NCBI GenBank assembly: GCA_963700145.1
Contig: OY969474.1
Location: 5,312,001-5,376,000, forward strand
Direction: 5' to 3'
Source of the DNA: an uncultured Acidobacteriota bacterium
Lineage (GTDB): Bacteria > Acidobacteriota > Thermoanaerobaculia > Multivoradales > UBA5704
Length of the DNA: 64,000 nt
Position 1 is the first letter of the stretch; each line of letters opens with the position of its first letter. A program made the position numbers and the translations under genes. Positions 9,206-56,475 of the stretch are shown piece after piece. Under the pieces are notes generated by a model that had not been told where the DNA came from, did no database searches, and saw only the letters and a program-made list of their open reading frames with translations.

Positions 9206-10060
9206 GCGGAGCAGCGCCGCCAGCGTCTCGATGCCGTCCACCAGTCGCGGGCCGGGGCGGCTGAAGCAGCCGTTGGCGTCGACCGGGAAGACCCGCCCGG
9301 CGCGCACCGCCCGCAGCTCTTCCCACTCCGGCCGGCCGCTCATCGCCGCGATCTGCGCCCGGGCGCCCTCCTCGTCGAAGCCGCAGGGCATCGCCACGAT
9401 GACGTCGGGGTCGGTGGCGCGGACCTCCTCCCAGGTCAGCCGCCGCGACGGGCCGCCGGGAGAGGCGGCGGCGTCGCTGCCGCCGGCGAGAGCGACCATC
9501 TCCGGCACCCAGTGGCCGCCGGCGAACGGCGGGTCGAGCCATTCGAGCGCCAGGACGCGCGGCCTGGGGCGGCCGGCCGCCATGGCGCGGAGCGCGGCGA
9601 GCCGTTCTTCGAGCTGCCCGACCAGCGCCGCGGCCTCCGCCGCGCGCCCGACGGCGGCGCCGACGCGGCGGATGTCGGCGAAGACCTCGGCGAGCGTCCG
9701 CGGATCGAGCGACAGCAGCTCCGGGCAGCGGGGGAGGGGCTGGATGGCGCCGTCCACCTGCGCCGTCGAGACGGCGCAGACCGGGCAGAGCTCCTGCGTG
9801 ACGATGAGGTCGGGGGCGAGGTCGGCGATCCGCGCCTCGTCGAGCGTGTAGAGGCTGGCGCCGCTCCCCACCTGCGCCGACACCGCCTGGTCCACCTCCG
9901 CGGCGGACATCCCGGCGGCCAGCGCGCTGCCGGTGAGCGCCGGCCGCCGCCGCGCCTCGGCGGGGTAGTCGCACTCGTGGCTCACCCCAACGACCATGTC
10001 GCCGGCGCCGACCGCGAAGAGGATCTCCGTGCCGTTGGGCACCAGCGAGACGATGCGCAC
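9197..10060 (-). CDS. Cobalamin/Fe-siderophore ABC substrate-binding protein (BtuF-like)
   Basis: MRIVSLVP-TEILFA, GVSHECDYP, TQELCPVCAV, LEWLDPPF-GGHWVPEM and FSRPGPRL. Confidence 0.88.
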   Translation of the reverse strand: MRIVSLVPNGTEILFAVGAGDMVVGVSHECDYPAEARRRPALTGSALAAGMSAAEVDQAVSAQVGSGASLYTLDEARIADLAPDLIVTQELCPVCAVSTAQVDGAIQPLPRCPELLSLDPRTLAEVFADIRRVGAAVGRAAEAAALVGQLEERLAALRAMAAGRPRPRVLALEWLDPPFAGGHWVPEMVALAGGSDAAASPGGPSRRLTWEEVRATDPDVIVAMPCGFDEEGARAQIAAMSGRPEWEELRAVRAGRVFPVDANGCFSRPGPRLVDGIETLAALLRSG

Positions 10061-45319: not shown

Positions 45320-46402
45320 ATGGCCACGGCCGTCGCGAGCAGCAGCACCTTCGACCGCATCGTCGAGTCTCTCGGCGACGAGGCGGACAACCTGCTGTCG
45401 TTCACCTGCAAGGGCATCCCGAAGGAGCAGCTCGTCCTCCCCGGGCCGGACCACACCGATCACGCCTGGGGGCCCTCCGACCGCAAGCCCGCGGTGCTGG
45501 TCAACCTCCAGCGCCTCCACGACCACGGCCGCCTGGGCGGCACCGGCTACCTCTCGATCCTGCCCGTGGACCAGGGGGTCGAGCACTCCGGCGCCGCCTC
45601 CTTCGCACCCAACCCGATCTACTTCGACCCCGAGAACATCGTCCAGCTCGCTCTCGAGGGCGGCTGCAACGCGGTGGCCTCGACGGTCGGCGTGCTCGGG
45701 GCGCTGTCGCGCAAGTACGCCCACCGCATCCCCTTCATCGCCAAGATCAACCACAACGAGCTGCTGACCCTGCCGAGCAAGTTCGAGCAGATCCTCTTCG
45801 GCGGCGTCGAGCAGGCGTGGGGGATGGGGGCGGCGGCGGTGGGCGCCACCATCTACTTCGGCAGCGACGACGCCGGGCGCGAGATCGTCGAGATCGCCGA
45901 GGCCTTCCAGCACGCCCACGAGCTGGGGATGGCGACGATCCTCTGGGCCTACCTGCGCAACAGCGGCTTCAAGAAGGAAGGGGTGGACTACCACGAGGCC
46001 GCCGACCTGACCGCGCAGGCCAACCACCTGGCGGTGACGATCCAGGCCGACATCGTCAAGCAAAAGCAGGCCACCCGCAACGGCGGCTATCCGGCGCTCG
46101 GCTTCGGCAAGACCCACCCGCGGGTCTACAGCGAGCTGGTGGCCGACCATCCGGTCGACTGGGCGCGCTGGCAGGTCGCCAACTGCTACATGGGCCGCGC
46201 CGGCCTGATCAACTCGGGCGGCGAGTCGAAGGGCAAGGGGGACACGGCGCAGGCGGTGCGCACCGCCGTCATCAACAAGCGCGGCGCCGGCACCGGCCTG
46301 ATCTCCGGCCGCAAGGCCTTCCAGCGCCCGATGAAGGACGGCGTGGACCTCCTCCACGCGATCCAGGACGTCTATCTCTGTGACGAGGTGACGATCGCGT
46401 AG
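45320..46402 (+). CDS. fbaB: Class I fructose-bisphosphate aldolase
   Basis: [28 protein letters not shown] and [10 protein letters not shown]; GAGGAGG SD. Confidence 0.95.
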
Positions 46403-46408
46403 GAAGAA

Positions 46409-46470
46409 CGCCCGGCACGTAGGCCGGGCGCTACGCCGCCGTTCGTAGCGGCGGGCCTACGTGCCCGCCG
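46409..46470. repeat. Inverted pair of GTAG-type REP hairpins
   Basis: (-) GTAG-CGCCCGGC-CTACGT-GCCGGGCG and (+) GTAG-CGGCGGGC-CTACGT-GCCCGCCG, 10 nt apart, followed by a T-run. Confidence 0.82.
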
Positions 46471-47641
46471 TTTTTTCTTCGCCTCCCAACAGCTTCCGGA
46501 TCTCGGGCAGCCGCGCCTCGGCGTCCCGCTCGCCGATCTCCATCAGCTTCGTCAGGTAGTCGGGCTGGAAGGAGAGGTAGGAGAGGAAGTCGCCGCTCTT
46601 CGTCTCGCGGGTCCCCAGGCTGCGCGTCAGGTAGCGGAAGGCCCTGGGCAGCTGCGGCTCGAACTCGCGCGCCAGGGCTCCGATGTCCACGCTCGGGCGG
46701 AGCACCAGGAGCTCGAGCGGCTTGAGCCCATCCCACTCCTCGGGCGGCAAGCGGCGGAGCAGAGAGTTGAGCCGCTCCATCTGCGCCGAGTCGTAGTCCA
46801 GCATGTCGAGGAAGATCGAGTTGAGGAGGTGGTTGAGGATCTGCGCCGGCGGCGGATAGCCGCGCACTTTCCGCCGCTCGGCCTCCTCCTTGGTCGGCTG
46901 GTAGCGCGGCGACACCGCCAGGATGCGCCGCGCCCCGAGGTGGAGGGCGGGGGCGAGCGGCGTGTGCAGGCGGATGCCGCCGTCGCCGTACCAGGACTCG
47001 CCGAGGCGGACGGCGGGGAAGAAGATCGGCAGGGCCGCGGAGGCCATGACGTGCTCGACGCCGATCCGCGCCGGCAGGCTCACTCGCCGCGGCCGCTCCC
47101 AGGCGGCGAGGTCGCCGCCGCCCTGCGTCCAGGTGATCGTCTGGCCGGTCGAGTAGTTGAGGGTGGTGAGGGCCAGCGCCTGCAGGACGCCCCGCTCCAG
47201 GTTGCGCGCGATACCGATGATCTCGCCGTCCACGGTGGCGACCGCGCGCTGGATCGTGGCGCGCAGCGGCTGGCTGTCGACGAGGCCGCGCACCTCCGGG
47301 GCGCGCGGGTCGCCGCCGGAGACCAGGTGGGCGCCCCAGCGCGCCAGGTTGCGGGCGAGCCAGGGGACGTCGACGCGGAAGATGTCCTCGACCTGCAGCT
47401 CGCCCCAGAGCGCGGAGAGGGCGGGCGCCGACTCGCCGAGCGCCCCGGCGTGGGCGGCGAGGTAGGTGGCGTTGATGGCGCCGGCCGAGACGCCGGCGAT
47501 GATCGGGAAGCGCAGCTCGGGGAAGGCGGCGCCGAGGCAGCGCAGCATTCCCACCTGGTAGGCGGCGCGCGCGCCACCGCCGGTGAGGACGATGGCGAGG
47601 TCGCTCGGCTCGGGCGCGGGGGTGTCTTGGGCGGCGCTCAC
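46457..47641 (-). CDS. Patatin-like phospholipase
   Basis: TGGGARAAYQVG, GVSAG, ASAALP and GDGG. Start is GTG 47641 or ATG 47653. Confidence 0.92.
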   Translation of the reverse strand: MSAAQDTPAPEPSDLAIVLTGGGARAAYQVGMLRCLGAAFPELRFPIIAGVSAGAINATYLAAHAGALGESAPALSALWGELQVEDIFRVDVPWLARNLARWGAHLVSGGDPRAPEVRGLVDSQPLRATIQRAVATVDGEIIGIARNLERGVLQALALTTLNYSTGQTITWTQGGGDLAAWERPRRVSLPARIGVEHVMASAALPIFFPAVRLGESWYGDGGIRLHTPLAPALHLGARRILAVSPRYQPTKEEAERRKVRGYPPPAQILNHLLNSIFLDMLDYDSAQMERLNSLLRRLPPEEWDGLKPLELLVLRPSVDIGALAREFEPQLPRAFRYLTRSLGTRETKSGDFLSYLSFQPDYLTKLMEIGERDAEARLPEIRKLLGGEEKTAGT

Positions 47642-47688
47642 TCTGCGTGGCATTATCGCCGCGCTTCGCTCGACAGGGAGACCGGCCC

Positions 47689-48285
47689 ATGAAGATCCTG
47701 CTGACGGCGGTGGCGATCCTGGTGCTGCTCGCCGCGCTCGCGCTCGGCGTCATCTACAGCGGCGCCTACGACGTGGCCGCCACCTCGCCGGACGAGGGCC
47801 TCGTGGGGTGGGCGCTCGAGACGGCTCAGGAGCGGTCGGTCGAGCGGCGGGCGAAGGCGGTCAAGGTGCCGGCGCTCGAGGGCCCCGAGCTGCTGGCCAC
47901 CGGTCTTATCCACTACCACGAGATGTGCGTCACCTGCCACGGCGCGCCGGGCGTGCCCGCCTCCGAGATCGGCGCCGGGCTCAACCCGTTCCCGCCGGAG
48001 ATGGCCGAGGAGCTCGGGCCGGCGGAGCTCTTCTGGGTGGTCAAGAACGGCATCAAGATGACCGGCATGCCCGCCTTCGGCCCGACCCACAGTGACGAGG
48101 AGCTGTGGGCGATCGTCGCCTTCGTCGAGACGCTGCCGGAGATGTCCGGCGAAGACTACGCCGCGGCGGTGCGCGAGGCCGGGCTAGGCGGCATGGCCGG
48201 AGAGGCCGCGGAGCCCACCGGCGCCGCCGGCGAGGAGCACTCCCACGCCCCCGGCACGAAGCCGCACTCTCACGACGGCCGGTAG
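47689..48285 (+). CDS. Monoheme cytochrome c with His-rich C-terminal tail
   Basis: N-terminal TM segment, CVTCHGAPG, FWVVKNGIKMTGMPAF; tail EEHSHAPGTKPHSHDGR. Confidence 0.9.
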   Translation: MKILLTAVAILVLLAALALGVIYSGAYDVAATSPDEGLVGWALETAQERSVERRAKAVKVPALEGPELLATGLIHYHEMCVTCHGAPGVPASEIGAGLNPFPPEMAEELGPAELFWVVKNGIKMTGMPAFGPTHSDEELWAIVAFVETLPEMSGEDYAAAVREAGLGGMAGEAAEPTGAAGEEHSHAPGTKPHSHDGR

Positions 48286-48338
48286 CGCCTCGGAGCGCCC
48301 AGTCAGTAAAACCGAGACAGAAGCCGGTAGGGGGCACA

Positions 48339-49763
48339 GTGTCGAAGATTCTGAGTTTGTTGATGGGTTCATGCGTTGTTGCCGCGGCGGTCTTTCAGAC
48401 CGCGTGTACAACTTCCGGCGGCGGCCCCGGCACCGTGACGTTGCCCGTCGATCCGACCTGCACCATCCTCGCTGTCAGTTCGCTCAAGAACAACACCATC
48501 GACACGGTGATGGAATCCAGGCGTTCCCTCACCAATTCTTCCGCGATCGGGGGCTTCACGCCATTCAGAAGTCTTAGCGGGCCGCGCAGCAATCCACCCG
48601 TCGCCGGTAACGTAAACGTCGATGTGTATGGCATCAGCGAGGCGTGGTTCCGCCGTCCCAGCAACGCGACGGTGGTGCTCGCGCAGGCGCACGGCGCGCC
48701 GCGCCAGGGCGCGACGGATTCGCTCGCGAGCGCCTGGAGCATACGCGCACAGGATGCCGCGGGTAGCTGGAGTCCGGTGTTCGCCGGGGGCTCGGCCAAC
48801 CGGGGCGACGAGATCGACGATTCCGCGGCCGGTGCCCTCACCGTGCCACAGCTCATGACCGTCGGAACGGCCAATCTGCAGATGTTCGCATGCGCCGGCT
48901 GGCGTACCCAGGACAACACGGGTCGCAGCACCTGGCTCATCGAGATAATCCCGCCCAATACCGCCGCAGGCTTGGGCGGGAGCGCCGCGCCGGTACAGGA
49001 CGTGCTCTACGGCGACGATCGATTCGTGCCGAACGCGACAGGTGGCCCGCTGATCGGCCCGGCCAATCCACCTTCACCGCGTGTGAGCGGGCCGGGCGAC
49101 CAGGCGCGCAATGGCCATGCGCAATGCGCCATGACGCAGCTGAACGACGATCTCACGACGCGCGAGCTGCACATGATGGTCGTGGATCGCGGACGCCTCT
49201 ATCACAGCATGGCAAGTGGTTTCGGTCCTGCGCACGATGACAACGGTCTCGTCATCTCTAATCGGTTCAGCTCGATTTCGGGATGGGCGGATGTCAGCAC
49301 CGCGCTCGGCGTCAACTTCGGCAACATCGAAAGCGCCACGCTCGTTGCATCGCGCCCTACCGCCATCAGCATCATCTTCGAGGCAGAAAACGGCGGTCGC
49401 CATCGCCTCTGGCACACCGTCAGACTGTCGACGGGCGGCGGTTCGTGGCGGCCGGCGGATGACGTGACGACTGCCTCGGGCGCATCGCTCAACGGCCTCG
49501 TCGAGTCGTGGAACGTCGCGGCCGGGATCTGTCCGTCTTTCGACAATTCGCCAAACGCGCCCGACGAGCTCGTCTACATCACCTGGAACAACTCCGGCAC
49601 GTTTGTCGGACGCGTTGTGTCGACGCCGCGCACCTGGGCGCCCGGCATCACGGGCCTTTACTCCCCCCTTACCTCCATCCCCGGCATCCTCGTCTTTCCG
49701 AATAACCCCAATCGCCAGAACGTCGCCCAGAGCGTGCGGCTCTTCACCAGGCCCTTCCAGTGA
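48339..49763 (+). CDS. Hypothetical lipoprotein (lower-GC cargo)
   Basis: GTG start, lipobox-like FQTAC, 474-aa ORF rich in N/S/T/G, visibly different codon style. Confidence 0.72.
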   Translation: MSKILSLLMGSCVVAAAVFQTACTTSGGGPGTVTLPVDPTCTILAVSSLKNNTIDTVMESRRSLTNSSAIGGFTPFRSLSGPRSNPPVAGNVNVDVYGISEAWFRRPSNATVVLAQAHGAPRQGATDSLASAWSIRAQDAAGSWSPVFAGGSANRGDEIDDSAAGALTVPQLMTVGTANLQMFACAGWRTQDNTGRSTWLIEIIPPNTAAGLGGSAAPVQDVLYGDDRFVPNATGGPLIGPANPPSPRVSGPGDQARNGHAQCAMTQLNDDLTTRELHMMVVDRGRLYHSMASGFGPAHDDNGLVISNRFSSISGWADVSTALGVNFGNIESATLVASRPTAISIIFEAENGGRHRLWHTVRLSTGGGSWRPADDVTTASGASLNGLVESWNVAAGICPSFDNSPNAPDELVYITWNNSGTFVGRVVSTPRTWAPGITGLYSPLTSIPGILVFPNNPNRQNVAQSVRLFTRPFQ

Positions 49764-49779
49764 TGTCTCGCTGCGGCCC

Positions 49780-49811
49780 ACGATCCGTAACGCAGCCCAG
49801 GGCGCCGCGCC
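49780..49811 (+). repeat. 32-bp perfect direct repeat, copy 1
   Basis: ACGATCCGTAACGCAGCCCAGGGCGCCGCGCC, identical to 54179-54210. Confidence 0.95.
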
Positions 49812-49812
49812 G

Positions 49813-49923
49813 CTCGGCGGAATGGCAGGCGAGGCGGCCGAGCCCACCGGCGCCGCCGGCGAGGAGCACTCCCACTCCCACGCGGACCCGCCGGGCGCCG
49901 CGCCGCACCGACACGACGGCTGA
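49813..49923 (+). pseudogene. Second copy of the cytochrome c 3' end
   Basis: LGGMAGEAAEPTGAAGEEHSH identical to 48184-48246 at protein level, then SHADPPGAAPHRHDG*. Confidence 0.92.
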
Positions 49924-49942
49924 TCCTTTCCGAGCGAAGAGA

Positions 49943-50263
49943 TCAGGCAGTAAGCCGCAAGACCTGGCCTGGCACGAGGGTGTCGATCAGCGGCCGCAGT
50001 TTGGCCAACACGGGCTGCACGTCCGCGTAATCGTTGGACTTTGCCAGGAGCACGACGACAGCAAGCTGCAAGTCCGCGATGCGCTGCTGATGAGGCAGGT
50101 GCCGGTCCGTGGTGACGAGCACGTCGAAGTGGGGCTCCGCGAGGCGGAGCAGCTCCCCGTTCTTCTTCCCCGCCCAGCGGATCTCCGCGACGGTTCGAAC
50201 GTCATGACCGGGAAGCTCCTCCTTGAGACGCCGCGGGAGCGACTCGTCAAGGAGTACGCGCAT
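49943..50263 (-). CDS. DUF5615 PIN-like toxin
   Basis: MRVLLDESLP, W-GKKNGELL and FDVLVTTD. Confidence 0.88.
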   Translation of the reverse strand: MRVLLDESLPRRLKEELPGHDVRTVAEIRWAGKKNGELLRLAEPHFDVLVTTDRHLPHQQRIADLQLAVVVLLAKSNDYADVQPVLAKLRPLIDTLVPGQVLRLTA

Positions 50264-50480
50264 TGGCGAGGACCGCCGCGCCGGCTTCTTCGAGGGCTGC
50301 CACAGCCTGCTCGCGAGTGACCGAGGGGAAGTCGTCCAGAAACTCCGCCAACGGATGTCCTGCCTCGAGATAGTCGAGTAGTGCCTGGAAGGGCACGCGA
50401 GTGCCGATGAAGACCGGCGTCCCGCTCATGATTTCGGGGTCGCTGTGAACGACGGAGCTCGGCTTCCTGAGGGAGTTCAT
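50247..50480 (-). CDS. DUF433 antitoxin
   Basis: SDPEIMSGTPVFIGTRVP...FLDDFPSV. Confidence 0.9.
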   Translation of the reverse strand: MNSLRKPSSVVHSDPEIMSGTPVFIGTRVPFQALLDYLEAGHPLAEFLDDFPSVTREQAVAALEEAGAAVLANARTP

Positions 50481-50499
50481 CGCCGCTGATTCTACGCCC

Positions 50500-50865
50500 C
50501 ATCGGCGGCAGGGCGAGTCGGGCACCACCTCCAACCCGCACGCCGAACCGGGCGGCGAAGCAACGAGCCGCCACCTCTCCTGGTCTCAACTCATCCGCAA
50601 GGTCTACGAGATCGACCCGCTGCTGTGCACCTTCTGCGGCGCCGCGATGCGCATCGTCGCCTTCATCGTCGAGCTTTCCTCGCTCCGTCGCATCCTCCAA
50701 CACCTCGACGTCCGCTGCCAGCAGCCCGAGCCTCTCGCTCCCTCGCCTCCCGCCGGGGTCGGGCTCGTCTACGCTCCCGCCTGGTCGGGGCCCGGCCCGC
50801 CGAGGCGACAGGCCGGCCAAGCCAGGGGTGTGCGCTCAGCGCCTTCCCATCGGGTACGATCGTGA
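50500..50865 (+). pseudogene. C-terminal remnant of an IS91/ISCR-like transposase
   Basis: SWSQLIRKVYEIDPLLCTFCGAAMRIVAFI...RRILQHL; no catalytic domain or start upstream. Confidence 0.72.
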
Positions 50866-51672
50866 CAGTGACACGGAGAGGCGGCTCTCCGCCAGCGCAA
50901 GCATGGCGCGAGCGCCGGAAGCCGGCGTCCCCCCGGGAGAGCATGACACCGCGGGAGGCGGGGTGCAGCTCTCCGCCACCAGGGTCACCTCGCCCGCGAA
51001 GGTCAGAGGTGAGAAGACCCGGCACTTGGTGCGCACCGGGGCTTCTCTGGCGACGGCGACGACCTGGCGCGTGGACTCCTCCCGGTCAGCGTTCTCCAGG
51101 CGGAAGAGACGCGCGAGCAGGGAGGGCTCCGGCGGCCTCTGGGGGCTCTTCACGACGAACTCGAAGCCTCTGGCGAAGTAGTCCTTCGCGTCCTCCAGAC
51201 GGAGCTTCAGGATCTGCCGGACTTCCCCCTCTCCCCGCTCGAGTATGAGCACGTAGTGCTGGTCGGCCAGTCTGTCCCCCGCGCCCGCGGAAAGCCAGCG
51301 GTCGGTGAAGACCACGTTCCTCTTGTCGGACACGATTCGAATCCCGCCGTTGTACTCGATGGCCTGGAAAAGGCCGGTCCGGTAGATCAGGCATCCGTCG
51401 CGGGCCGTGTACCGAAGGGGGCCCAGCAGGTCCGCCCGGCGGCCGCGGAAGATCCGCAGGCGCAAGGCTTTCGCGCCCCCCGCATTCTTCAGATCCGTGG
51501 GGTTCAGATTCACCTTGAACAGGTCGCCGAGCCCGTACTCCTGGTACTGCGCGTCCAGGAACTTGATCGGCGGAATCGTGATGGCGGGCTCGGACTGCGC
51601 ATACGCCAACCCTGCCGGGACGGCCCAGGCCAGCAGAGCCCAGGCCTTGATGAACGTGCGGCGGAACGTCAT
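50836..51672 (-). CDS. Secreted hypothetical protein, 3' end possibly truncated
   Basis: AAGGAG SD; signal MTFRRTFIKAWALLAW...AYA; C-terminus runs into the transposase remnant. Confidence 0.68.
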   Translation of the reverse strand: MTFRRTFIKAWALLAWAVPAGLAYAQSEPAITIPPIKFLDAQYQEYGLGDLFKVNLNPTDLKNAGGAKALRLRIFRGRRADLLGPLRYTARDGCLIYRTGLFQAIEYNGGIRIVSDKRNVVFTDRWLSAGAGDRLADQHYVLILERGEGEVRQILKLRLEDAKDYFARGFEFVVKSPQRPPEPSLLARLFRLENADREESTRQVVAVAREAPVRTKCRVFSPLTFAGEVTLVAESCTPPPAVSCSPGGTPASGARAMLALAESRLSVSLSRSYPMGRR

Positions 51673-51710
51673 GACCGTCTCCTTTCGTCGGGCTGATGCC
51701 CCTCCCTGTT

Positions 51711-52772
51711 CTATGGAAACGAGCTGCTCGCGTCGGATTCCGGGGCGGCTTCGAGTCTCTTGTTGATGAAGAATGTGACCACGTCTTTCTCGCTCTCGAT
51801 GCGCATCAGGCCGACGTCCTTCGCCGGGATGACCCAGATGTGGAGCTCGTTTTTCTCGAACACGACGAGCGCATCCGAAGACCTTTGGAGGAGGTAGCCG
51901 TGGACGGATTCCTCCTGCGGCTTGTGGCTCAGCACCACCTCGCCGACCCAGGTCGACCGCATCGACTTGCCATAGGAGTAGGGGAGCAGCAGGAGGTCGA
52001 GGGTCGCGAGCAGGACGAGGGCGCTCGCTCCGCGGCGCGCTGCCGCGCCTTGGCCTCGCTGCCGCTGGACGCGGCCGTACGCCCAGCTCGCGAGGGCCAC
52101 CGTGAGGAAGAGGTTCAGGGCGAAGCGGTCCTTGAGCCGCTGCCGGTACGCATTCCGCGGGAGCGGGCACCGGATCAAGAGCTTTTGCAGGCTCTCCCGA
52201 TAGTTCTCATCCGCGCGGGAGCAGACCTCGTCCAGCCAGGCTTGCTTCGCCAGCATGCCGAGCACGACCCGCCGACGAAGGTCGTCCGGAGGCTGCAGGC
52301 CATGGATGAGCATCCCGTGGAGGCTCATGACGGGGAGGTCAAGCAGCCCGATCTCCAGCAGGAGCAAAGCCGGGAGGAGCCAGGGGAGCAGGGGCTTGGG
52401 GATCCGGGGCGAGAGCCGACTGCGCAGCTTGGACCCAATGCGGCGCCCGGGGCCGGTCAGCGCCAGCGCCGCCAGGACGATTACGGTCCCCGTGATCACG
52501 AGGTGGTCCGCCACGGCCGTGAAGCTGATGAGCAGCAGGTCGACGAAGAACCGGCCCGCCTCAACGGACAGATGGAGGATCTCTCCCGACGTCCCCGCGT
52601 CGTAGCCGAGGCGAGCCTGGTAAGCGGTATCGACGAGAAAGCCGGTGGCGAGGAAGAGGCCCGAGATGCCGATGGAAGTGAGCAGCCACTTCAGAGCTGT
52701 GAGTAGCCGCAGCGGCACGACCTGAGCCTCGCCTGCCTTCCGGGCCTCACCTTCCTGTCGATCGACCTGCAT
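51711..52772 (-). CDS. Hypothetical multi-TM protein
   Basis: 353-aa ORF with several hydrophobic helices; AGGAGAG upstream. Confidence 0.72.
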   Translation of the reverse strand: MQVDRQEGEARKAGEAQVVPLRLLTALKWLLTSIGISGLFLATGFLVDTAYQARLGYDAGTSGEILHLSVEAGRFFVDLLLISFTAVADHLVITGTVIVLAALALTGPGRRIGSKLRSRLSPRIPKPLLPWLLPALLLLEIGLLDLPVMSLHGMLIHGLQPPDDLRRRVVLGMLAKQAWLDEVCSRADENYRESLQKLLIRCPLPRNAYRQRLKDRFALNLFLTVALASWAYGRVQRQRGQGAAARRGASALVLLATLDLLLLPYSYGKSMRSTWVGEVVLSHKPQEESVHGYLLQRSSDALVVFEKNELHIWVIPAKDVGLMRIESEKDVVTFFINKRLEAAPESDASSSFP

Positions 52773-53789
52773 GCCGTCTCTCTCCTGGGAGGCCAGCGCA
52801 GTCGTGCTCTTTTCTGGATTGCAGAAAGTATAGCAGAGCTCAGGGCTGCTGCGGCTGCTTGAGTACCAACGGGCGTGAGGTGCCCCGGGAAAGTGCCTCG
52901 CGCCAGGCTAAGCCTGGGAAGGGAGGAAGGATGAAGTAAGAACCAGAAACCGTTCGTCGTGGACCCAGTAGGTCCGAATCCTAGCCGGCAAGGGTTGGCC
53001 ACCCACGGAGAGCGCAGAGCGGTGCCGGGCGCCTCGTTGAAGGGAAGGCTTAAGGAGTGCCAGGAAGCGGTGCCAGGTGCCTGGAGAAAAGAAGAAGGGC
53101 GTCGGGGCCTACGAGCGCCTTCGTAGTCGATCTAGAAAGGTGAACGGACGACCGAAACCTCGATTGGGTCTTGCCAGCGTTCGAACTGCGTCGTTGACGA
53201 CCCGCCACCGCCACCTCCCAGGCCCTTCATCAAGGTCTCCGGAAACACCTTGACCGTGGTCACCGCGACTTTCGAGTAGAAAGCAGTCAGTTGTTGGAGG
53301 GCTGACTATTGACTGTCACCCGCCGACGAAGGGTAAGGCGGGCGGAAAACTTCCTGCGGGGAAAGGAGCAGCGCGGTCTCCGGCTCACAGCTTCTCGGCG
53401 GCTGAGCGGAACCCCAGGACGAACCAGGCATAGACGTCGTAAAGCGTCCGCCACATGATGTAGCTCGCCGCCAGAAACCATAGAAGACGGAAAATCTTCG
53501 GCGTTCTTGCAAATCCGTGCCAGGCTTGAGTTTGCGGGCGGGGTTTTGGCTCATTTCGGGTTCTAGAAGAGTTCTGTGACTCTGACCGCCCCGAGAGCGT
53601 TGGGCAACCTGAAGAAGCAGCGGCGTACCCGCAGTGCGGTTCGGCAGGAAGACCGGCACTTCGTGAAGTGCCTGGGCAAGGACGAGCGATGAGAAAAGGA
53701 GGAGCGTCGGGGAGATGACGACATACTCCAGCGGAGGATCTACCTCATGAGAGGCCTCTCCGACCACCGAACGTCTTCCATTCAGCACG

Positions 53790-53935
53790 GTCGATGCCTC
53801 ATCGACCTTGGTCGACGGGCCGTTTACTTAAGTCGATCCTACATCGACTCGAGTCGATGAGCCGTTTACCTAAGTCGATCCTAAATCAACCGAGGTCAAT
53901 GCGCCATGCACCCTCGAGTTGATGCCTCATCGATC
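53790..53935. repeat. Degenerate 21-bp tandem array with alternating (42-bp) super-period
   Basis: Units starting GTCGA/GTCAA at 53790, 53811, 53832, 53853, 53874 and 53895; units 2 and 4, and 3 and 5, resemble each other. Confidence 0.8.
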
Positions 53936-53944
53936 GACCGCGGC

Positions 53945-54094
53945 TCAAGTGAATTCAATCAGCGTGCTCCAGTAGAGCTTGATGAGGTCCACACCCAGCT
54001 CCGCCTGTCGTTTGCCTTCGGCCCGCATGTCCGCACGGTGGCGGTGTACGGTGTAGGACATCGCTTGCACGGCGACGGTGTACCCGATGCGACC
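53945..54094 (-). pseudogene. Possible orphan C-terminal gene fragment
   Basis: GRIGYTVAVQAMSY...LGVDLIKLYWSTLIEFT* looks protein-like and abuts tail copy 3. Confidence 0.3.
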
Positions 54095-54096
54095 GA

Positions 54097-54189
54097 GATG
54101 AATCGTCCGAGCCGGAGATCGGCGCCGGCGAGGAGCATACCCACACCCACCCCGAGGGGATGCCGCAGCACTCTCACGACGATCCGTAA
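54097..54189 (+). pseudogene. Third, more diverged copy of the cytochrome c 3' end
   Basis: DESSEPEIGAGEEHTHTHPEGMPQHSHDDP* versus GEAAEPTGAAGEEHSH...PHSHDGR*. Confidence 0.8.
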
Positions 54190-54210
54190 CGCAGCCCAGG
54201 GCGCCGCGCC
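54179..54210 (+). repeat. 32-bp perfect direct repeat, copy 2
   Basis: Identical to 49780-49811; spans the stop codon of tail copy 3. Confidence 0.95.
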
Positions 54211-54232
54211 CCATCGGATAGACTCCCCGCCC

Positions 54233-55105
54233 ATGCGGCTGGGCGATCTGGAGCTGACCGTGGTGGGGGACGGGGAGTTCGGGCTGGACGGCGGGGCGAT
54301 GTTCGGGGTGGTGCCGAAGACGCTCTGGGAGAGGGTCAAGCCGCCGGACGCCAGGAACCGCATCCGCATGGCCACCAACTGTCTGCTGGTGGAGCGCGGG
54401 AGCGACCTGCTGCTCGTCGACAGCGGGATCGGCGACAAGCACGACGCCAGGTTCCGCGCCAACTACGCGATGGACGAGACGGCCGAGCGGCTGCCGGACG
54501 CGATCTGGCGCGCCGGCCACGCGCCCGAGGACGTCACCCACGTCCTCCTCTCGCACCTCCACTTCGACCACTGCGGCTGGAACACCCGCTACGACGGCGG
54601 GACCCTCGTCCCCACCTTCCCGCGCGCCCGTTACTGGCTGGAGCGCGGCGAGGTGGAGCACGCGCGCGCGCCCAACGAGCGGGACCGCGCGAGCTACGAC
54701 CCGCGCAACTGGGAGCCGCTGTTCGAAGCCGGCGTCGTCGAGCTCTTCGACGGCGAGGCCGAGCCGATGCCCGGCGTGCGCGCCGTCAAAGCGCCGGGAC
54801 ACAACGCCGACATGTGTATCGTGCTTTTGGACGGAGGAAGCAACGAGCGCGGCGTCTACTGGGCCGACCTCGTCCCCACCGCCGCCCACGTCCCGTATCC
54901 ATGGATCATGGGCTACGACCTCTACCCCCTGACCACCCTGGAGACCAAGAAGCGGTGGCTGCCGCGCGCCGCCGCCGAGGGGTGGCTCTGCGTCTTCGAG
55001 CACGACGCCGAGACGCCGCTCGCGCGCCTGGTCGAGGAGAAGCCCGGGCGTTTCGCCGCGGCGGCCGTCGAGGAGATGGAATGCCTGACCAAGACTTCGA
55101 CCTGA
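54233..55105 (+). CDS. MBL-fold metallo-hydrolase (YtnP-like)
   Basis: LDGGAMFGVVPK-LW, SHLHFDHCG, PGH, WIMGYDLYP and FEHD. Confidence 0.92.
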   Translation: MRLGDLELTVVGDGEFGLDGGAMFGVVPKTLWERVKPPDARNRIRMATNCLLVERGSDLLLVDSGIGDKHDARFRANYAMDETAERLPDAIWRAGHAPEDVTHVLLSHLHFDHCGWNTRYDGGTLVPTFPRARYWLERGEVEHARAPNERDRASYDPRNWEPLFEAGVVELFDGEAEPMPGVRAVKAPGHNADMCIVLLDGGSNERGVYWADLVPTAAHVPYPWIMGYDLYPLTTLETKKRWLPRAAAEGWLCVFEHDAETPLARLVEEKPGRFAAAAVEEMECLTKTST

Positions 55106-56475
55106 TCATCCTCGGCAGCGGCCCCGGGGGGTACGTCGCCGGCATCCGCGCCGGCCAGCTCGGCCTGAAGACCGCGCTGGTCGAGAAGGACCCGAAGCTG
55201 GGCGGCACCTGCACGCTGCGCGGCTGCATCCCGACCAAGGCCCTCCTCCACACCGCGGCCGTGCTCGACGAGATCCGCGACGCCGGCGTCCACGGCATCC
55301 AGGTCCCCGCGCCGCAGCTCGACGTCGCCAAGGCGCAGGCGCGGAAGCGCTCGATCGTGGACAAGAACTCGAAGGGGATCGAGTTCCTGCTCAAGAAAAA
55401 CAAGGTCACGGGCCTGCACGGCCGCGGCCGCCTCACCGGCCCCAACCAGGTCGAAGTGGACGGCCCGCAGGGAAAGAAGACCTACTCGGCGAAGAACATC
55501 CTCATCGCCACCGGCTCGGTGCCGCGCGACATCCCGATCGCCCCGGCAGACGGCCAGCGCATTTTGAACTCCGACCACGTTCTGGAGCTCGAGCGGGTGC
55601 CGCAGAGCCTGGCGGTCCTGGGCGCCGGCGCCGTCGGCACCGAGTTCGCCTCGATCTACGCCTCCTTCGGCGCCAAGGTGACGCTCGTCGAGATGCTGCC
55701 ACGCATCCTGCCGATCGAGGACGAAGAGGTCTCGGCGGAGCTCGAGAAGGCGCTCAGGAAGCGCGGCATCGACGTCCTGACCGGGACGAAGCTCACCGCG
55801 GTGGAGCAGACCGAGGGCGGCGTCCGCCTCAGCCTGGAAGGCGGCAAGAAGCCGACCGTCGAGGCCGAGCTGCTGCTCGTCGCCATCGGCCGCCGGCCGG
55901 TGACCGAGGACCTCGGGCTCGAAGCCCTCGGCATCCAGCTCGACCGCGGCTACGTCCAAGTCAATGGGACCATGCAGACGGCGGCGCCGCACATCTATGC
56001 CATCGGCGACGTCGTCCCCACCCCGTGGCTCGCCCACGTCGCCTCGTCCGAGGGGATCCTGGCGGTCGAGCACATGGCCGGCCAGCCGGTGAAGCCCCTC
56101 AACTACGACCGCGTCCCCTCCTGCACCTACTGCGACCCGGAGGTGGGGAGCGTCGGCTTGACCGAGGCCAAGGCGCGCGAGCGCGGCTACGCGGTGCAGA
56201 CCGGCAAGTTCCCCTTCTCGGCGCTCGGCAAGGCGCGCATCCTGGGGCGCAGCGAGGGGTTCGTGAAGGTGGTCCGCGAGACCAAGTACGACGAGCTGCT
56301 GGGGGTGCACATCGTCGGCGCCCACGCCACGGACCTGATCGCCGAGGCCTGCGTGGCGCTGCAGATGGAAGCCACCAACGAGGAGCTGTTCCGCACCATG
56401 CACGCCCACCCGACCCTCGCCGAGGGGGTGGCCGAGGCGGCCCACGCCGCCACCGGCCACGCGATCCACATCTAG
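55081..56475 (+). CDS. lpdA: Dihydrolipoyl dehydrogenase (E3)
   Basis: GSGPGGYVA, GGTCTLRGCIPTK, GAGAVG-E and HAHPTLAE. Confidence 0.95.
   Translation: MPDQDFDLIILGSGPGGYVAGIRAGQLGLKTALVEKDPKLGGTCTLRGCIPTKALLHTAAVLDEIRDAGVHGIQVPAPQLDVAKAQARKRSIVDKNSKGIEFLLKKNKVTGLHGRGRLTGPNQVEVDGPQGKKTYSAKNILIATGSVPRDIPIAPADGQRILNSDHVLELERVPQSLAVLGAGAVGTEFASIYASFGAKVTLVEMLPRILPIEDEEVSAELEKALRKRGIDVLTGTKLTAVEQTEGGVRLSLEGGKKPTVEAELLLVAIGRRPVTEDLGLEALGIQLDRGYVQVNGTMQTAAPHIYAIGDVVPTPWLAHVASSEGILAVEHMAGQPVKPLNYDRVPSCTYCDPEVGSVGLTEAKARERGYAVQTGKFPFSALGKARILGRSEGFVKVVRETKYDELLGVHIVGAHATDLIAEACVALQMEATNEELFRTMHAHPTLAEGVAEAAHAATGHAIHI

What the first reader, a model, noticed from the sequence alone, without database searches (positions are those of the whole stretch)
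48184..54210. Tandem cassette array built on the 3' end of a cytochrome c gene: three alternative His-rich tails and a 32-bp direct repeat
Seen: unit 1 (48184-49811) is tail 1, a lipoprotein and the 32-bp repeat. Unit 2 starts at 49813, one spacer base after that repeat, with tail 2. It carries a TA pair, an IS91-like remnant and orphan genes, and ends with tail 3 and the identical 32-bp repeat. The two units therefore share both boundaries but have unrelated cargo. No integrase lies in the window. Inference: a hotspot where cargo enters by repeatedly replacing the host gene's 3' end. This resembles phage attB sites inside coding genes, but here involves small integrase-less cassettes, possibly via circular intermediates.
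Basis: partly seen in the sequence, partly recalled or inferred. Interest (0 to 1): 0.85.

Follow-up and report, generated by a model that had tools for sequence, protein, structure and literature searches.

The report
Displaced cytochrome c tails array
Between a cytochrome c gene and its normal neighbour, a soil bacterium has stacked two blocks of foreign genes, each behind a leftover copy of the gene's end, much as toxin genes pile up displaced ends, and most likely through ordinary recombination between strain variants.

Summary
The 32-mer occurs exactly twice in the 5.46-Mb genome. There are three cytochrome c 3' tails, a DUF433/DUF5615 pair and an IS91/ISCR transposase remnant. No integrase or resolvase lies in the window.

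In 19 of 29 relatives the cytochrome c gene directly abuts the MBL-fold gene, so about 5.9 kb is inserted here. Tail 3 plus the 21-nt spacer is the native gene end.

Metagenome contigs show unit A without B, B's right part without A, and the TA pair directly next to MBL. A 237-nt contig crosses the A/B joint without a difference.

The "shared boundaries" come from one novel joint: the end of the intergenic spacer fused to the tail start. Tail relics start at four different positions. Other joints show 3-10-nt microhomology. Unit B is a patchwork of mobile-element debris.

Best reading (0.6): C-terminal displacement, that is, alleles of one hypervariable locus concatenated by recombination that is not site-specific. 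Rhs and T6SS loci are the known parallel. Integrase-less site-specific cassettes are not excluded (about 0.1).

This is a modest new instance of a known kind.

The parts
46457..47653 (-). Patatin-like phospholipase gene, the conserved left flank of the locus
   Evidence: PF01734, 1.3e-22. It lies beside the cytochrome c gene in most relatives.
47689..48285 (+). Cytochrome c gene. Its current His-rich end is tail 1 (48184-48285).
   Evidence: PF13442, 4.5e-16. Orthologues were found in 41 of 60 relatives at E <= 1e-10. The same type of tail 1 ends the gene in G004 and in G001 contig C663.
48286..48336 (+). Two-unit remnant of a 21-bp repeat array with a CAGTA core
   Evidence: It matches the roughly 370-bp array that follows the cytochrome c stop codon in G001 C663 and that lies inside the G004 island (read by eye).
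48339..49763 (+). Predicted lipoprotein of 474 aa, the only cargo of unit A
   Evidence: It has a signal peptide and a Cys lipobox-like N-terminus, read from the translation. No Pfam or NCBIfam family matches. No match in 60 relatives. It is present in metagenome runs X3 and X4.
49780..49811 (+). 32-mer, copy 1: the last 11 nt of a cytochrome c tail including the stop codon, plus the 21-nt native intergenic spacer
   Evidence: Identical to 54179-54210. The second copy sits in its native context: the end of tail 3, the spacer, then the MBL upstream sequence.
49812..49923 (+). Tail 2, a displaced and probably silent 3' end of a cytochrome c allele
   Evidence: 88.7% identical to tail 1 over 71 nt. 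86% identical to the tail in G001 C420. The only ORF over it starts at a TTG inside the lipoprotein gene.
49943..50534 (-). Toxin-antitoxin-like pair: DUF5615/PIN-like (49943-50263) and DUF433 (50247-50534)
   Evidence: The same pair, 96% identical at nucleotide level, lies directly next to MBL in G004. The same arrangement appears in contigs of X2 (a joint from 50464 to 54214) and X3.
50495..50505 (+). CGCCCCATCGG, an 11-nt copy of the MBL upstream sequence (54207-54217). It marks the joint between the TA allele and the IS91 remnant.
   Evidence: G004 reads ...CTGATTCTACGCCCCATCGGATAGACTCC-MBL. The window reads the same up to ...CATCGG and then continues with the IS91 remnant. The BLAST matches to G004 and to G001 overlap by 3 nt, 50503-50505.
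50506..50917 (+). IS91/ISCR-family transposase C-terminal remnant plus part of the element's 3' non-coding end, cut off on both sides
   Evidence: G001 C663 keeps more of the 5' side. Copies elsewhere in this genome and the G004 copy continue about 130 nt beyond the equivalent of 50917.
50836..52772 (-). Two-gene module of unknown function: a 353-aa membrane protein (51711-52772) and a secreted protein (50836-51654) whose last 40 or so residues are read from the IS remnant
   Evidence: No family matches. The same pair occurs at other loci in G018 (78% nucleotide identity over 50965-52724), G013 and G008. The G018 homologue matches only residues 1-230 of the 272-aa secreted protein.
52884..53014 (+). 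Fragment of the 5' end of a group II intron (about 130 nt)
   Evidence: 84-87% identical to multi-copy sequences in other genera. In L146 and L140 that sequence runs on into Rfam RF02005 and an RVT_1 ORF; L146 also has RF00029 at 39.2 bits, just under its 40-bit gathering score. Rfam found nothing in the window itself.
53315..53568 (.). The two ends of a multi-copy element joined without its ORF. It is a miniature derivative, possibly of the IS200/IS605 type.
   Evidence: 53315-53456 and 53484-53568 match the flanks of a 307-aa ORF in G025. That ORF has only weak Y1_Tnp likeness, 1.7e-4, below the family cut-off.
53790..53894 (+). 42-bp tandem repeat, 2.5 copies
   Evidence: It lies inside a 241-nt stretch (53758-53998) that a contig of X2 lacks. 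That stretch is flanked by CTCCG on both sides.
54107..54210 (+). Tail 3 (about 54107-54189), the displaced native 3' end of the gene, followed by the native 21-nt spacer. The second 32-mer copy is 54179-54210.
   Evidence: Collinear with the 'empty' alleles of G001 C420 and G003.
54211..55105 (+). Conserved upstream motif (CCATCGGATAGACTCC) and the MBL-fold gene, YtnP-lactonase-like. This is the conserved right flank.
   Evidence: PF00753, 2e-15. NF047919, 1e-57, below its cut-off. The motif is shared with G001, G003 and G004.

Best explanation
This is a strain-variable islet between two conserved neighbours, the cytochrome c gene and an MBL-fold gene. It was built by C-terminal displacement.

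The proposed mechanism is as follows. DNA from another strain's version of the same locus recombines in. That DNA may be a linear fragment or a circle. One side is held by homology, either in the cytochrome c gene or on the MBL side. The other side is joined illegitimately, often at a few shared bases. Each event leaves part of the resident allele behind.

What each piece is under this reading:
- Tail 3 plus the spacer is the original gene end.
- Tail 2 plus the TA pair is a former 'cytochrome c-TA-MBL' allele.
- The block from the IS91 remnant to the low-GC stretch is a former allele full of mobile-element debris.
- The lipoprotein unit is a further allele.
- The 32-mer repeat is the native end of the gene plus the spacer, present once in each of two concatenated alleles.
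- The single novel joint (49811|49812) fuses the end of one allele to the tail start of the next.

Shown: the anatomy, the separate alleles in nature, the differing joint positions, and the absence of a recombinase gene. Inferred: the recombination mechanism and the order of events.
For: 1. Ancestral state. MBL starts within 246 bp or less of the cytochrome c stop codon in 19 of 29 relatives' loci. The gap is 737 bp in 1 locus. In 7 loci no MBL lies within at least 986 bp. Two loci are uninformative. Same-genus G003 and G001 C420 are 'empty' and show tail, spacer and CATCGGATAGAC in that order, as around tail 3.

2. Separate alleles exist.
- X4: one 2627-nt contig runs from the lipoprotein (48211-49765), through 14 other letters, to 54190-55200.
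- X2: contigs cover 50645-54298 at depth about 8-10, while the lipoprotein region is covered at depth 0-3.
- X2 also has a joint from 50464 to 54214, and G004 has the TA pair directly next to MBL.

3. Window 50480-50505 keeps the TA|MBL-upstream junction of G004 and then continues into the IS91 remnant. This shows that an entire former allele was embedded.

4. The joints are not at one site. Tail relics start at 49812, at about 54107, and at the equivalent of about 49886 in G004, and there is an 11-nt relic at 49780.

5. Microhomology at the joints. It is 3 nt (CGG) at 50503-50505. It is 8-10 nt (CCCATCGG) at the left joint of the G004 island. A 241-nt indel is flanked by 5 nt (CTCCG).

6. No tyrosine or serine recombinase lies in the window. 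None was found in the G004 island either, among the 28 ORFs scanned.

7. The IS91 remnant is cut on both sides by the joints, so it is a passenger.

8. There is a published parallel. [quoted passage not shown]
Against: - Unit B is flanked by a perfect 32-bp direct repeat, which is also what att sites of an integrated circle look like.
- The spacer evolves fast. It is only about 60-65% alike between this genome and G001 C420 (my count by eye on alignment A1). Identity of the two copies therefore needs closely related parents or a recent event.
- Two independent joints (49811|49812 and 50505|50506) involve donor ends only 6 nt apart in the MBL upstream sequence (54210 and 54217). The motif CATCGGRTA occurs 3 times within 3.4 kb of the island against 32 in the whole genome. 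That clustering is not explained by random illegitimate joining.
- The joint 49811|49812 shows no clear microhomology.
- The order of events cannot be derived. A is shared with a roughly 96%-identical strain that lacks B, which does not fit a simple 'newest next to the gene' series.
- All population evidence is from metagenome contigs, which drop rare variants and give no raw reads.
Confidence: 0.6

Rival explanations
1. Integrase-less, site-specific cassettes. Units A and B would be small circles that a recombinase encoded elsewhere in the genome inserts at a fixed site, either at the cytochrome c tail/spacer (the 32-mer) or at CCATCGG. This is essentially the first reader's idea.
For: - A perfect 32-bp direct repeat flanks exactly 4399 bp.
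- A and B assort independently among strains.
- Two joints cluster within 6 nt of the MBL upstream motif, and the motif is enriched in the island.
- The genome encodes 6 tyrosine and 2 serine recombinases elsewhere.
Against: - The 32-mer is absent from the left boundary of unit A and occurs nowhere else in the genome.
- Tail relics begin at four different positions.
- The right ends of A and B, upstream of the repeat, share no sequence.
- The A-only allele in X4 has a different spacer and lacks the 11-nt relic.
- The G004 island has other joints.
- Run X1 gave no joint contig for excision or a circle. This is weak evidence, because contigs drop rare forms.
Confidence: 0.12
2. IS91/ISCR rolling-circle capture. 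An ISCR-like element next to the cytochrome c gene over-replicated into flanking DNA. The resulting circle re-entered by homologous recombination in the tail or spacer, duplicating the flank. This is the way complex class 1 integrons acquire a second 3'-conserved segment (mechanism recalled, not read here).
For: - An ISCR/IS91 transposase remnant lies in unit B in the same orientation as the cytochrome c gene, with tail 2 and the TA pair on its upstream side.
- Decayed copies of the same element exist elsewhere in the genome.
- The flank is duplicated on both sides of the unit.
Against: - Only about 120 C-terminal residues remain.
- PF04986 finds nothing in the genome, although the control genomes did not ring either, so this says little.
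- The remnant is truncated inside the transposase ORF by one joint and inside its 3' end by another, so those joints are later than the element.
- The cargo to the right of it lies beyond where its origin end would be.
Confidence: 0.12
3. Tandem accretion of decayed integrative elements (CIME-like). Each unit would once have had an integrase that targeted the 3' end of the cytochrome c gene and supplied a replacement end. The integrases have since been deleted.
For: - Replacement of a target gene's 3' end and tandem arrays at one gene end are typical of such elements (PMC5704250, passages read).
- A TA pair is common cargo on them.
- Unit B ends in a low-GC stretch with no intact gene.
Against: - No integrase fragment was detected in 52700-54208 by Pfam at E up to 10, nor by tblastn of the ORF next to tail 3 against plasmids.
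- The low-GC stretch is accounted for in part by a group II intron fragment and a miniature insertion element.
- The crossover positions differ between relics, and there is no common core at the three boundaries.
Confidence: 0.08
4. Assembly artefact: two strain haplotypes joined head to tail by the assembler.
For: The genome comes from a soil metagenome in which related strains with other alleles exist.
Against: - The joint 49811|49812 is a novel sequence that neither allele contains, so an overlap-based merge could not create it.
- An independent k-mer contig of run X1 covers 49633-49869 with 0 differences.
- The genome is a single 5.46-Mb contig.
Confidence: 0.02

Closest known systems
C-terminal displacement arrays of Rhs genes (Jackson et al. 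2009, PMC2935791; abstract and section 10 read)
   Same: - A full-length gene is followed downstream by silent fragments.
- Those fragments repeat the gene's 3' part over varying lengths.
- The ancestral end is pushed downstream by incoming ends.
- Related strains at the same locus show the intermediate states.
- No dedicated recombinase is involved. The authors propose homologous recombination with circular intermediates.
   Different: - Here the gene is a small cytochrome c, not a polymorphic toxin.
- The three tails are variants of one His-rich tail (73-89% alike), not unrelated tips.
- What travels behind each tail is unrelated cargo (a lipoprotein, a TA pair, mobile-element debris), not a cognate immunity gene.
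Sequential displacement of T6SS effector-immunity modules in Vibrio cholerae (Kirchberger et al. 2017, PMC5361080; passages read)
   Same: - Arrays grow by insertion next to a conserved upstream anchor.
- Older material, including the 3' ends of former genes, is shifted downstream.
- Homology-facilitated illegitimate recombination is the proposed mechanism.
- An integron-like appearance is noted, but no integrase is found.
   Different: - No selective logic such as immunity retention is evident here.
- The order 'newest nearest the gene' is not established here.
Tandem accretion of ICE/IME/CIME elements at the 3' end of a gene (review by Guedon et al. 2017, PMC5704250; passages read)
   Same: - Integrase-less units sit in tandem at the 3' end of a protein gene.
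- They are separated by repeats that include the gene end.
   Different: - CIMEs keep attL and attR with one common core and are moved by a related element's integrase.
- Here the core is missing at one boundary, the crossover points differ, and no related integrase-bearing element was found.
Integron cassette arrays
   Same: - Small promoter-less units are stacked in one orientation.
- The units are found singly or together in different strains.
   Different: - There is no intI, no attI, and no attC-like imperfect palindrome at the unit ends.
- Only one repeat pair is present.

Membership tests
C-terminal displacement array (Rhs / T6SS type) | An intact gene followed downstream by fragments that repeat its 3' part over varying lengths | tested here: met
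   Tail 2 is 112 nt, tail 3 about 83 nt, and the relic at 49780 is 11 nt. G004 keeps about 40 nt of tail 2.
C-terminal displacement array (Rhs / T6SS type) | Related strains at the same locus show the undisplaced end and intermediate arrangements | tested here: met
   Empty alleles: G003 and G001 C420. TA-only next to MBL: G004, X2, X3. A only: X4. B's right part without A: X2.
C-terminal displacement array (Rhs / T6SS type) | The displaced ends are unrelated, polymorphic tips, each followed by a cognate immunity gene | tested here: not met
   The tails are 73-89% alike. The cargo is a lipoprotein, a TA pair and mobile-element debris.
Site-specific integrative elements in tandem (ICE/IME/CIME accretion) | An integrase (tyrosine or serine) in the array, or a recognisable remnant | tested here: not met
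   No PF00589 or PF00239 match in the window. No match for the ORFs of 52700-54208 at E up to 10. No tblastn match for 53948-54130. DDE recombinases were not searched.
Site-specific integrative elements in tandem (ICE/IME/CIME accretion) | The same att core at every boundary (attL, the inner att, attR) | tested here: not met
   The 32-mer is present at 2 of 3 boundaries and has only 2 copies in the genome with up to 3 mismatches.
Site-specific integrative elements in tandem (ICE/IME/CIME accretion) | Independent insertions cross over at the same nucleotide of the target gene | tested here: not met
   There are four different relic start points.
Integron | An intI gene with an adjacent attI site and attC sites at the cassette ends | tested here: not met
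   No PF00589 match in the window. No attC-specific search was run. The listed inverted repeats include none at the unit ends.
IS91/ISCR transposition unit | An intact Y2 HUH transposase, with the origin end of the element at a unit boundary | tested here: not met
   Only profile positions 431-491 of 509 are matched. The 3' end is cut at about 50917, while paralogues continue about 130 nt further.
Xer-dependent integrative elements (IMEX) | A dif-like site at the element boundaries | not tested
   No dif model was available. By eye, the 32-mer has no AT-rich centre between inverted arms.
Homology-facilitated illegitimate recombination (a mechanism, not a family) | One side in continuous homology, the other joined at a short GC-rich microhomology | tested here: inconclusive
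   Microhomology is 3 nt at 50503-50505 and 8-10 nt at the left joint of G004, but 0-1 nt at 49811|49812. The true parent sequences are unknown.

The most novel reading that the evidence does not exclude
The cytochrome c tail and spacer would act as the attachment site of a cassette system that has no recombinase of its own. Units such as A (1629 bp) and B (4399 bp) would leave and enter as circles through a host-encoded recombinase acting at the 32-mer or at CCATCGG. Each would bring a spare gene end, so the host gene stays intact.
Probability: 0.1. Interest if true: 0.75.

Novelty: new member of a known kind. Interest (0 to 1): 0.35.

Why it matters
It shows that stacking of displaced gene ends, so far described for polymorphic toxin loci, also happens at an ordinary redox gene in uncultured soil Thermoanaerobaculia. 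It also leaves a readable record of successive allele mergers. That makes the locus a convenient natural marker for how recombinase-free islets grow, and a strain marker for this group. It does not reveal a new mobility machine unless circles or a dedicated recombinase are found.

Tried and rejected
- Integrase remnant next to tail 3. The minus-strand ORF 53948-54208 looked to me like the C-terminus of a tyrosine recombinase. There was no Pfam match at E up to 10 and no tblastn match in plasmids, so I dropped the idea.
- Pfam Y2_Tnp search of the genome. It found nothing, but the control genomes did not ring either, so the result is uninformative.
- Rfam and tRNA scans of the island: nothing found.
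- Metagenome contig scan with the cytochrome c protein. It kept 80 loci, all at 65% identity or less. Only 9 of the 80 have MBL downstream of the cytochrome c gene, so no close alleles were gained.
- Tail duplicates in the islands of other genera (G002, G013, G015, G029, G035): none found. Their downstream genes are ordinary, and no recombinase was among the 21 ORFs scanned. These are best read as synteny differences.
- A duplicated gene end beside the CAGTA repeat array downstream of the apt gene in this genome: none found.
- The 241-nt stretch missing in X2, considered as a miniature transposon: I saw no terminal inverted repeats by eye. It is better read as a microhomology indel.
- Run X1 gave no excision or circle joint. 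Contigs drop rare forms, so this is not evidence of absence.
- The ESM Atlas lookup for the lipoprotein gave only weak leads, beta-propeller or lectin-like, with scores of 0.87 or less.

Full report
**1. What is in the sequence**

- The 32-mer lies at 49780-49811 and 54179-54210. The copies are identical, and they are the only two in the 5.46-Mb single-contig genome even with three mismatches allowed.
- The cytochrome c gene (47689-48285; PF13442) ends in a His-rich tail.
- A second copy of that tail starts at 49812. It is 88.7% identical over 71 nt, E 2.8e-18.
- A third, shorter and more diverged copy ends at 54189.

Between the tails lie the following:

- An orphan lipoprotein gene (48339-49763). 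It matches no family and nothing in 60 relatives.
- A DUF5615/DUF433 pair.
- The last 120 or so residues of an IS91/ISCR-type transposase.
- A two-gene module of unknown function (50836-52772).
- 1.3 kb of lower G+C DNA without a convincing ORF.

None of the genome's six Phage_integrase matches or two Resolvase matches lies in the window.

**2. What the locus looked like before**

I took 29 relatives' loci around the orthologous cytochrome c gene.

| MBL-fold gene relative to the stop codon | Loci |
|---|---|
| Starts 12-246 bp after it | 19 |
| Starts 737 bp after it | 1 |
| Not within at least 986 bp | 7 |
| Contig ends too early to tell | 2 |

Same-genus G003 and contig C420 of G001 are 'empty'. 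They show the tail, the stop codon, a spacer of 11-24 nt, then CATCGGATAGAC and the MBL start.

Tail 3 with its 21-nt spacer has exactly this layout. From 54120 onward it is collinear with G001 C420 at 93%. Tail 3 plus the spacer is therefore the native end of the gene, and about 5.9 kb has come between the gene body and it.

**3. The pieces are former alleles of the same locus**

*G004 (same genus).* It carries a 9.4-kb island of biosynthetic genes. The same TA pair sits at its right end, directly against the MBL upstream sequence...CTGATTCTACG|CCCCATCGGATAGACTCC.

*The window.* It keeps that very junction up to ...CCCCATCGG (50495-50505) and then switches into the IS91 remnant. The two homologies overlap by three bases. 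So 49812-50505 is a whole former 'cytochrome c-tail 2-TA-MBL' allele, cut at both ends.

*G001 contig C663.* Its order is cytochrome c, tail 1, a 370-bp array of 21-bp repeats, a longer IS91 remnant, then the secreted-protein gene. It is 97.8% identical to window 50503-50949. This shows the allele into which the TA allele was joined.

*The low-G+C stretch.* It is mobile-element debris.

- 52884-53014 is the first 130 nt of a group II intron. The intron is multi-copy in other genera of the family, where the same sequence continues into Rfam RF02005 and a reverse-transcriptase ORF. In L146 it also continues into domains V-VI, just under the Rfam gathering score.
- 53315-53568 consists of the two ends of another multi-copy element with its ORF missing.

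*The IS91 remnant.* It is cut inside its ORF on the left and inside its 3' end on the right. The secreted protein's last 40 or so residues are read from it. The insertion sequence is therefore a passenger, older than the joints.

**4. Alleles in other samples**

All runs found are metagenome contigs, not raw reads.

- **X4.** One 2627-nt contig (depth 11.9) runs through the lipoprotein gene (48211-49765, 52 differences). It then has 14 other letters and continues at 54190 into MBL. This is unit A without unit B.
- **X2.** Contigs cover 50645-54298 at depth 8-10, with a 241-nt gap at 53758-53998 flanked by CTCCG. The lipoprotein region has depth 0-3. This is the right part of unit B without unit A. 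X2 also holds a joint from 50464 to 54214, which puts the TA pair next to MBL.
- **X1.** This run is the best holder and possibly the source sample. A 237-nt contig crosses the A/B joint (49633-49869) without a difference.

The joint is a sequence that neither parental allele contains, so an assembler could not have made it by overlap. The artefact reading is therefore very unlikely.

**5. Why the 'shared boundaries' do not imply cassettes**

Tail 1 is simply the end of the gene, and the second 32-mer simply runs on into the native MBL upstream sequence. Only one joint is new: the last base of the spacer (49811) fused to the start of a tail (49812). Any single fusion of a downstream point to an upstream point of two copies of a locus produces two units that begin and end alike.

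The first 32-mer is the end of the A allele. It consists of an 11-nt relic of an older tail plus the spacer, followed in the parent by MBL, as in X4.

Relics of tails start at four different positions:

- 49812
- about 54107
- about 49886 in window coordinates, in G004
- 49780

The A-only allele in X4 has a different 14-nt spacer without the 11-nt relic.

Joints that can be compared with a parent show short shared bases:

- CGG at 50503-50505
- CCCATCGG at the left end of the G004 island
- CTCCG around the 241-nt indel

This is the pattern expected from recombination held by homology on one side and closed illegitimately on the other, or from a circle re-entering by short homology. It is not the pattern of a site-specific enzyme.

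**6. What does not fit neatly**

- The two 32-mers are identical, although the spacer differs strongly between this genome and G001 C420.
- Two independent joints use donor ends only 6 nt apart in the MBL upstream sequence.
- The motif CATCGGRTA occurs three times in 3.4 kb of the island, once inverted at 54080-54089 just left of tail 3. The whole genome has 32 occurrences.
- Unit A is shared with a roughly 96%-identical strain that lacks B, so B may have entered downstream of A rather than next to the gene.

These points keep a site-preferring process alive at about one chance in ten. I could not test for circles or precise excision, because only contigs were available and the read tool is capped at one call.

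**7. Comparison with what is known**

The closest description is C-terminal displacement at Rhs loci. [quoted passage not shown] The authors propose homologous recombination with circular intermediates (PMC2935791, abstract and section 10 read).

The same picture was drawn for T6SS effector-immunity arrays. Homology-facilitated illegitimate recombination is the suggested mechanism there, and a resemblance to integrons without an integrase is noted (PMC5361080, passages read).

The present locus shares the architecture and the population pattern. It differs in three ways:

- The gene is a cytochrome c.
- The tails are variants of one sequence.
- The cargo is unrelated to the gene.

Membership in integrase-driven tandem accretion (CIME; PMC5704250, passages read), in integrons, or in an active IS91/ISCR unit fails on the features tested.

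**8. Verdict**

The locus is a hotspot, the tails are displaced gene ends and the units are modular. A dedicated cassette mechanism is not supported.
- Best explanation: allele concatenation by C-terminal displacement through recombination that is not site-specific (0.6).
- Novelty: a new instance of a known kind.
- Interest: 0.35.

Noticed in passing
L005 (G001 C663) about 1965-2330; L033 (G004) reverse strand about 9610-9975; window 48286-48336; own genome C1:1752100-1752289 and C1:485400-485484: A family of phased 21-bp repeats with a CAGTA(C/G)GT core sits directly after stop codons. It follows the cytochrome c gene in G001. In this genome it lies between the apt gene and a convergent HTH-type ORF.
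   Followed up: partly
window 53758-53998: A 241-nt stretch holding a 42-bp tandem repeat with GTCGAT...ATCGAC motifs is missing in a related strain (run X2). It is flanked by CTCCG on both sides. Function unknown.
   Followed up: partly
window 52884-53014: An isolated 130-nt fragment of the 5' end of a group II intron. Full copies, with reverse transcriptase, are multi-copy in other genera of the family, but none was found in the four same-genus genomes or elsewhere in this genome.
   Followed up: yes
window 54080-54089 (minus strand), 50848-50857 and 54212-54221: The 10-mer CATCGGGTAC / CATCGGATAG occurs three times near island joints, once inverted. Only 32 matches to CATCGGRTA exist in the whole genome. 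Unexplained.
   Followed up: partly
window 50836-50960: The secreted-protein ORF ends in sequence read from the opposite strand of the IS91 remnant, so its C-terminus is chimeric and the gene may be damaged.
   Followed up: partly
window 46397-46482: A 39-nt-arm inverted repeat (82% complementary) lies between the convergent DeoC-like aldolase and patatin genes. It is probably a bidirectional terminator.
   Followed up: no
L030 (G006 C3:413731-414902): Two cytochrome c paralogues lie in tandem before the MBL gene in another genus. This is a whole-gene duplication at the same locus.
   Followed up: no
L034:16840-18954: A radical SAM ORF in G002 with LAGLIDADG and intein-splicing matches, that is, a probable intein.
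   Followed up: no
L039 (G001 C420) 1-434 compared with L005 (G001 C663): The G001 assembly holds two different 3' parts of the cytochrome c gene, 86-96% alike. One is followed by the island and the other by MBL. This is either two strains in one bin or a displaced partial gene copy of at least 434 nt.
   Followed up: partly
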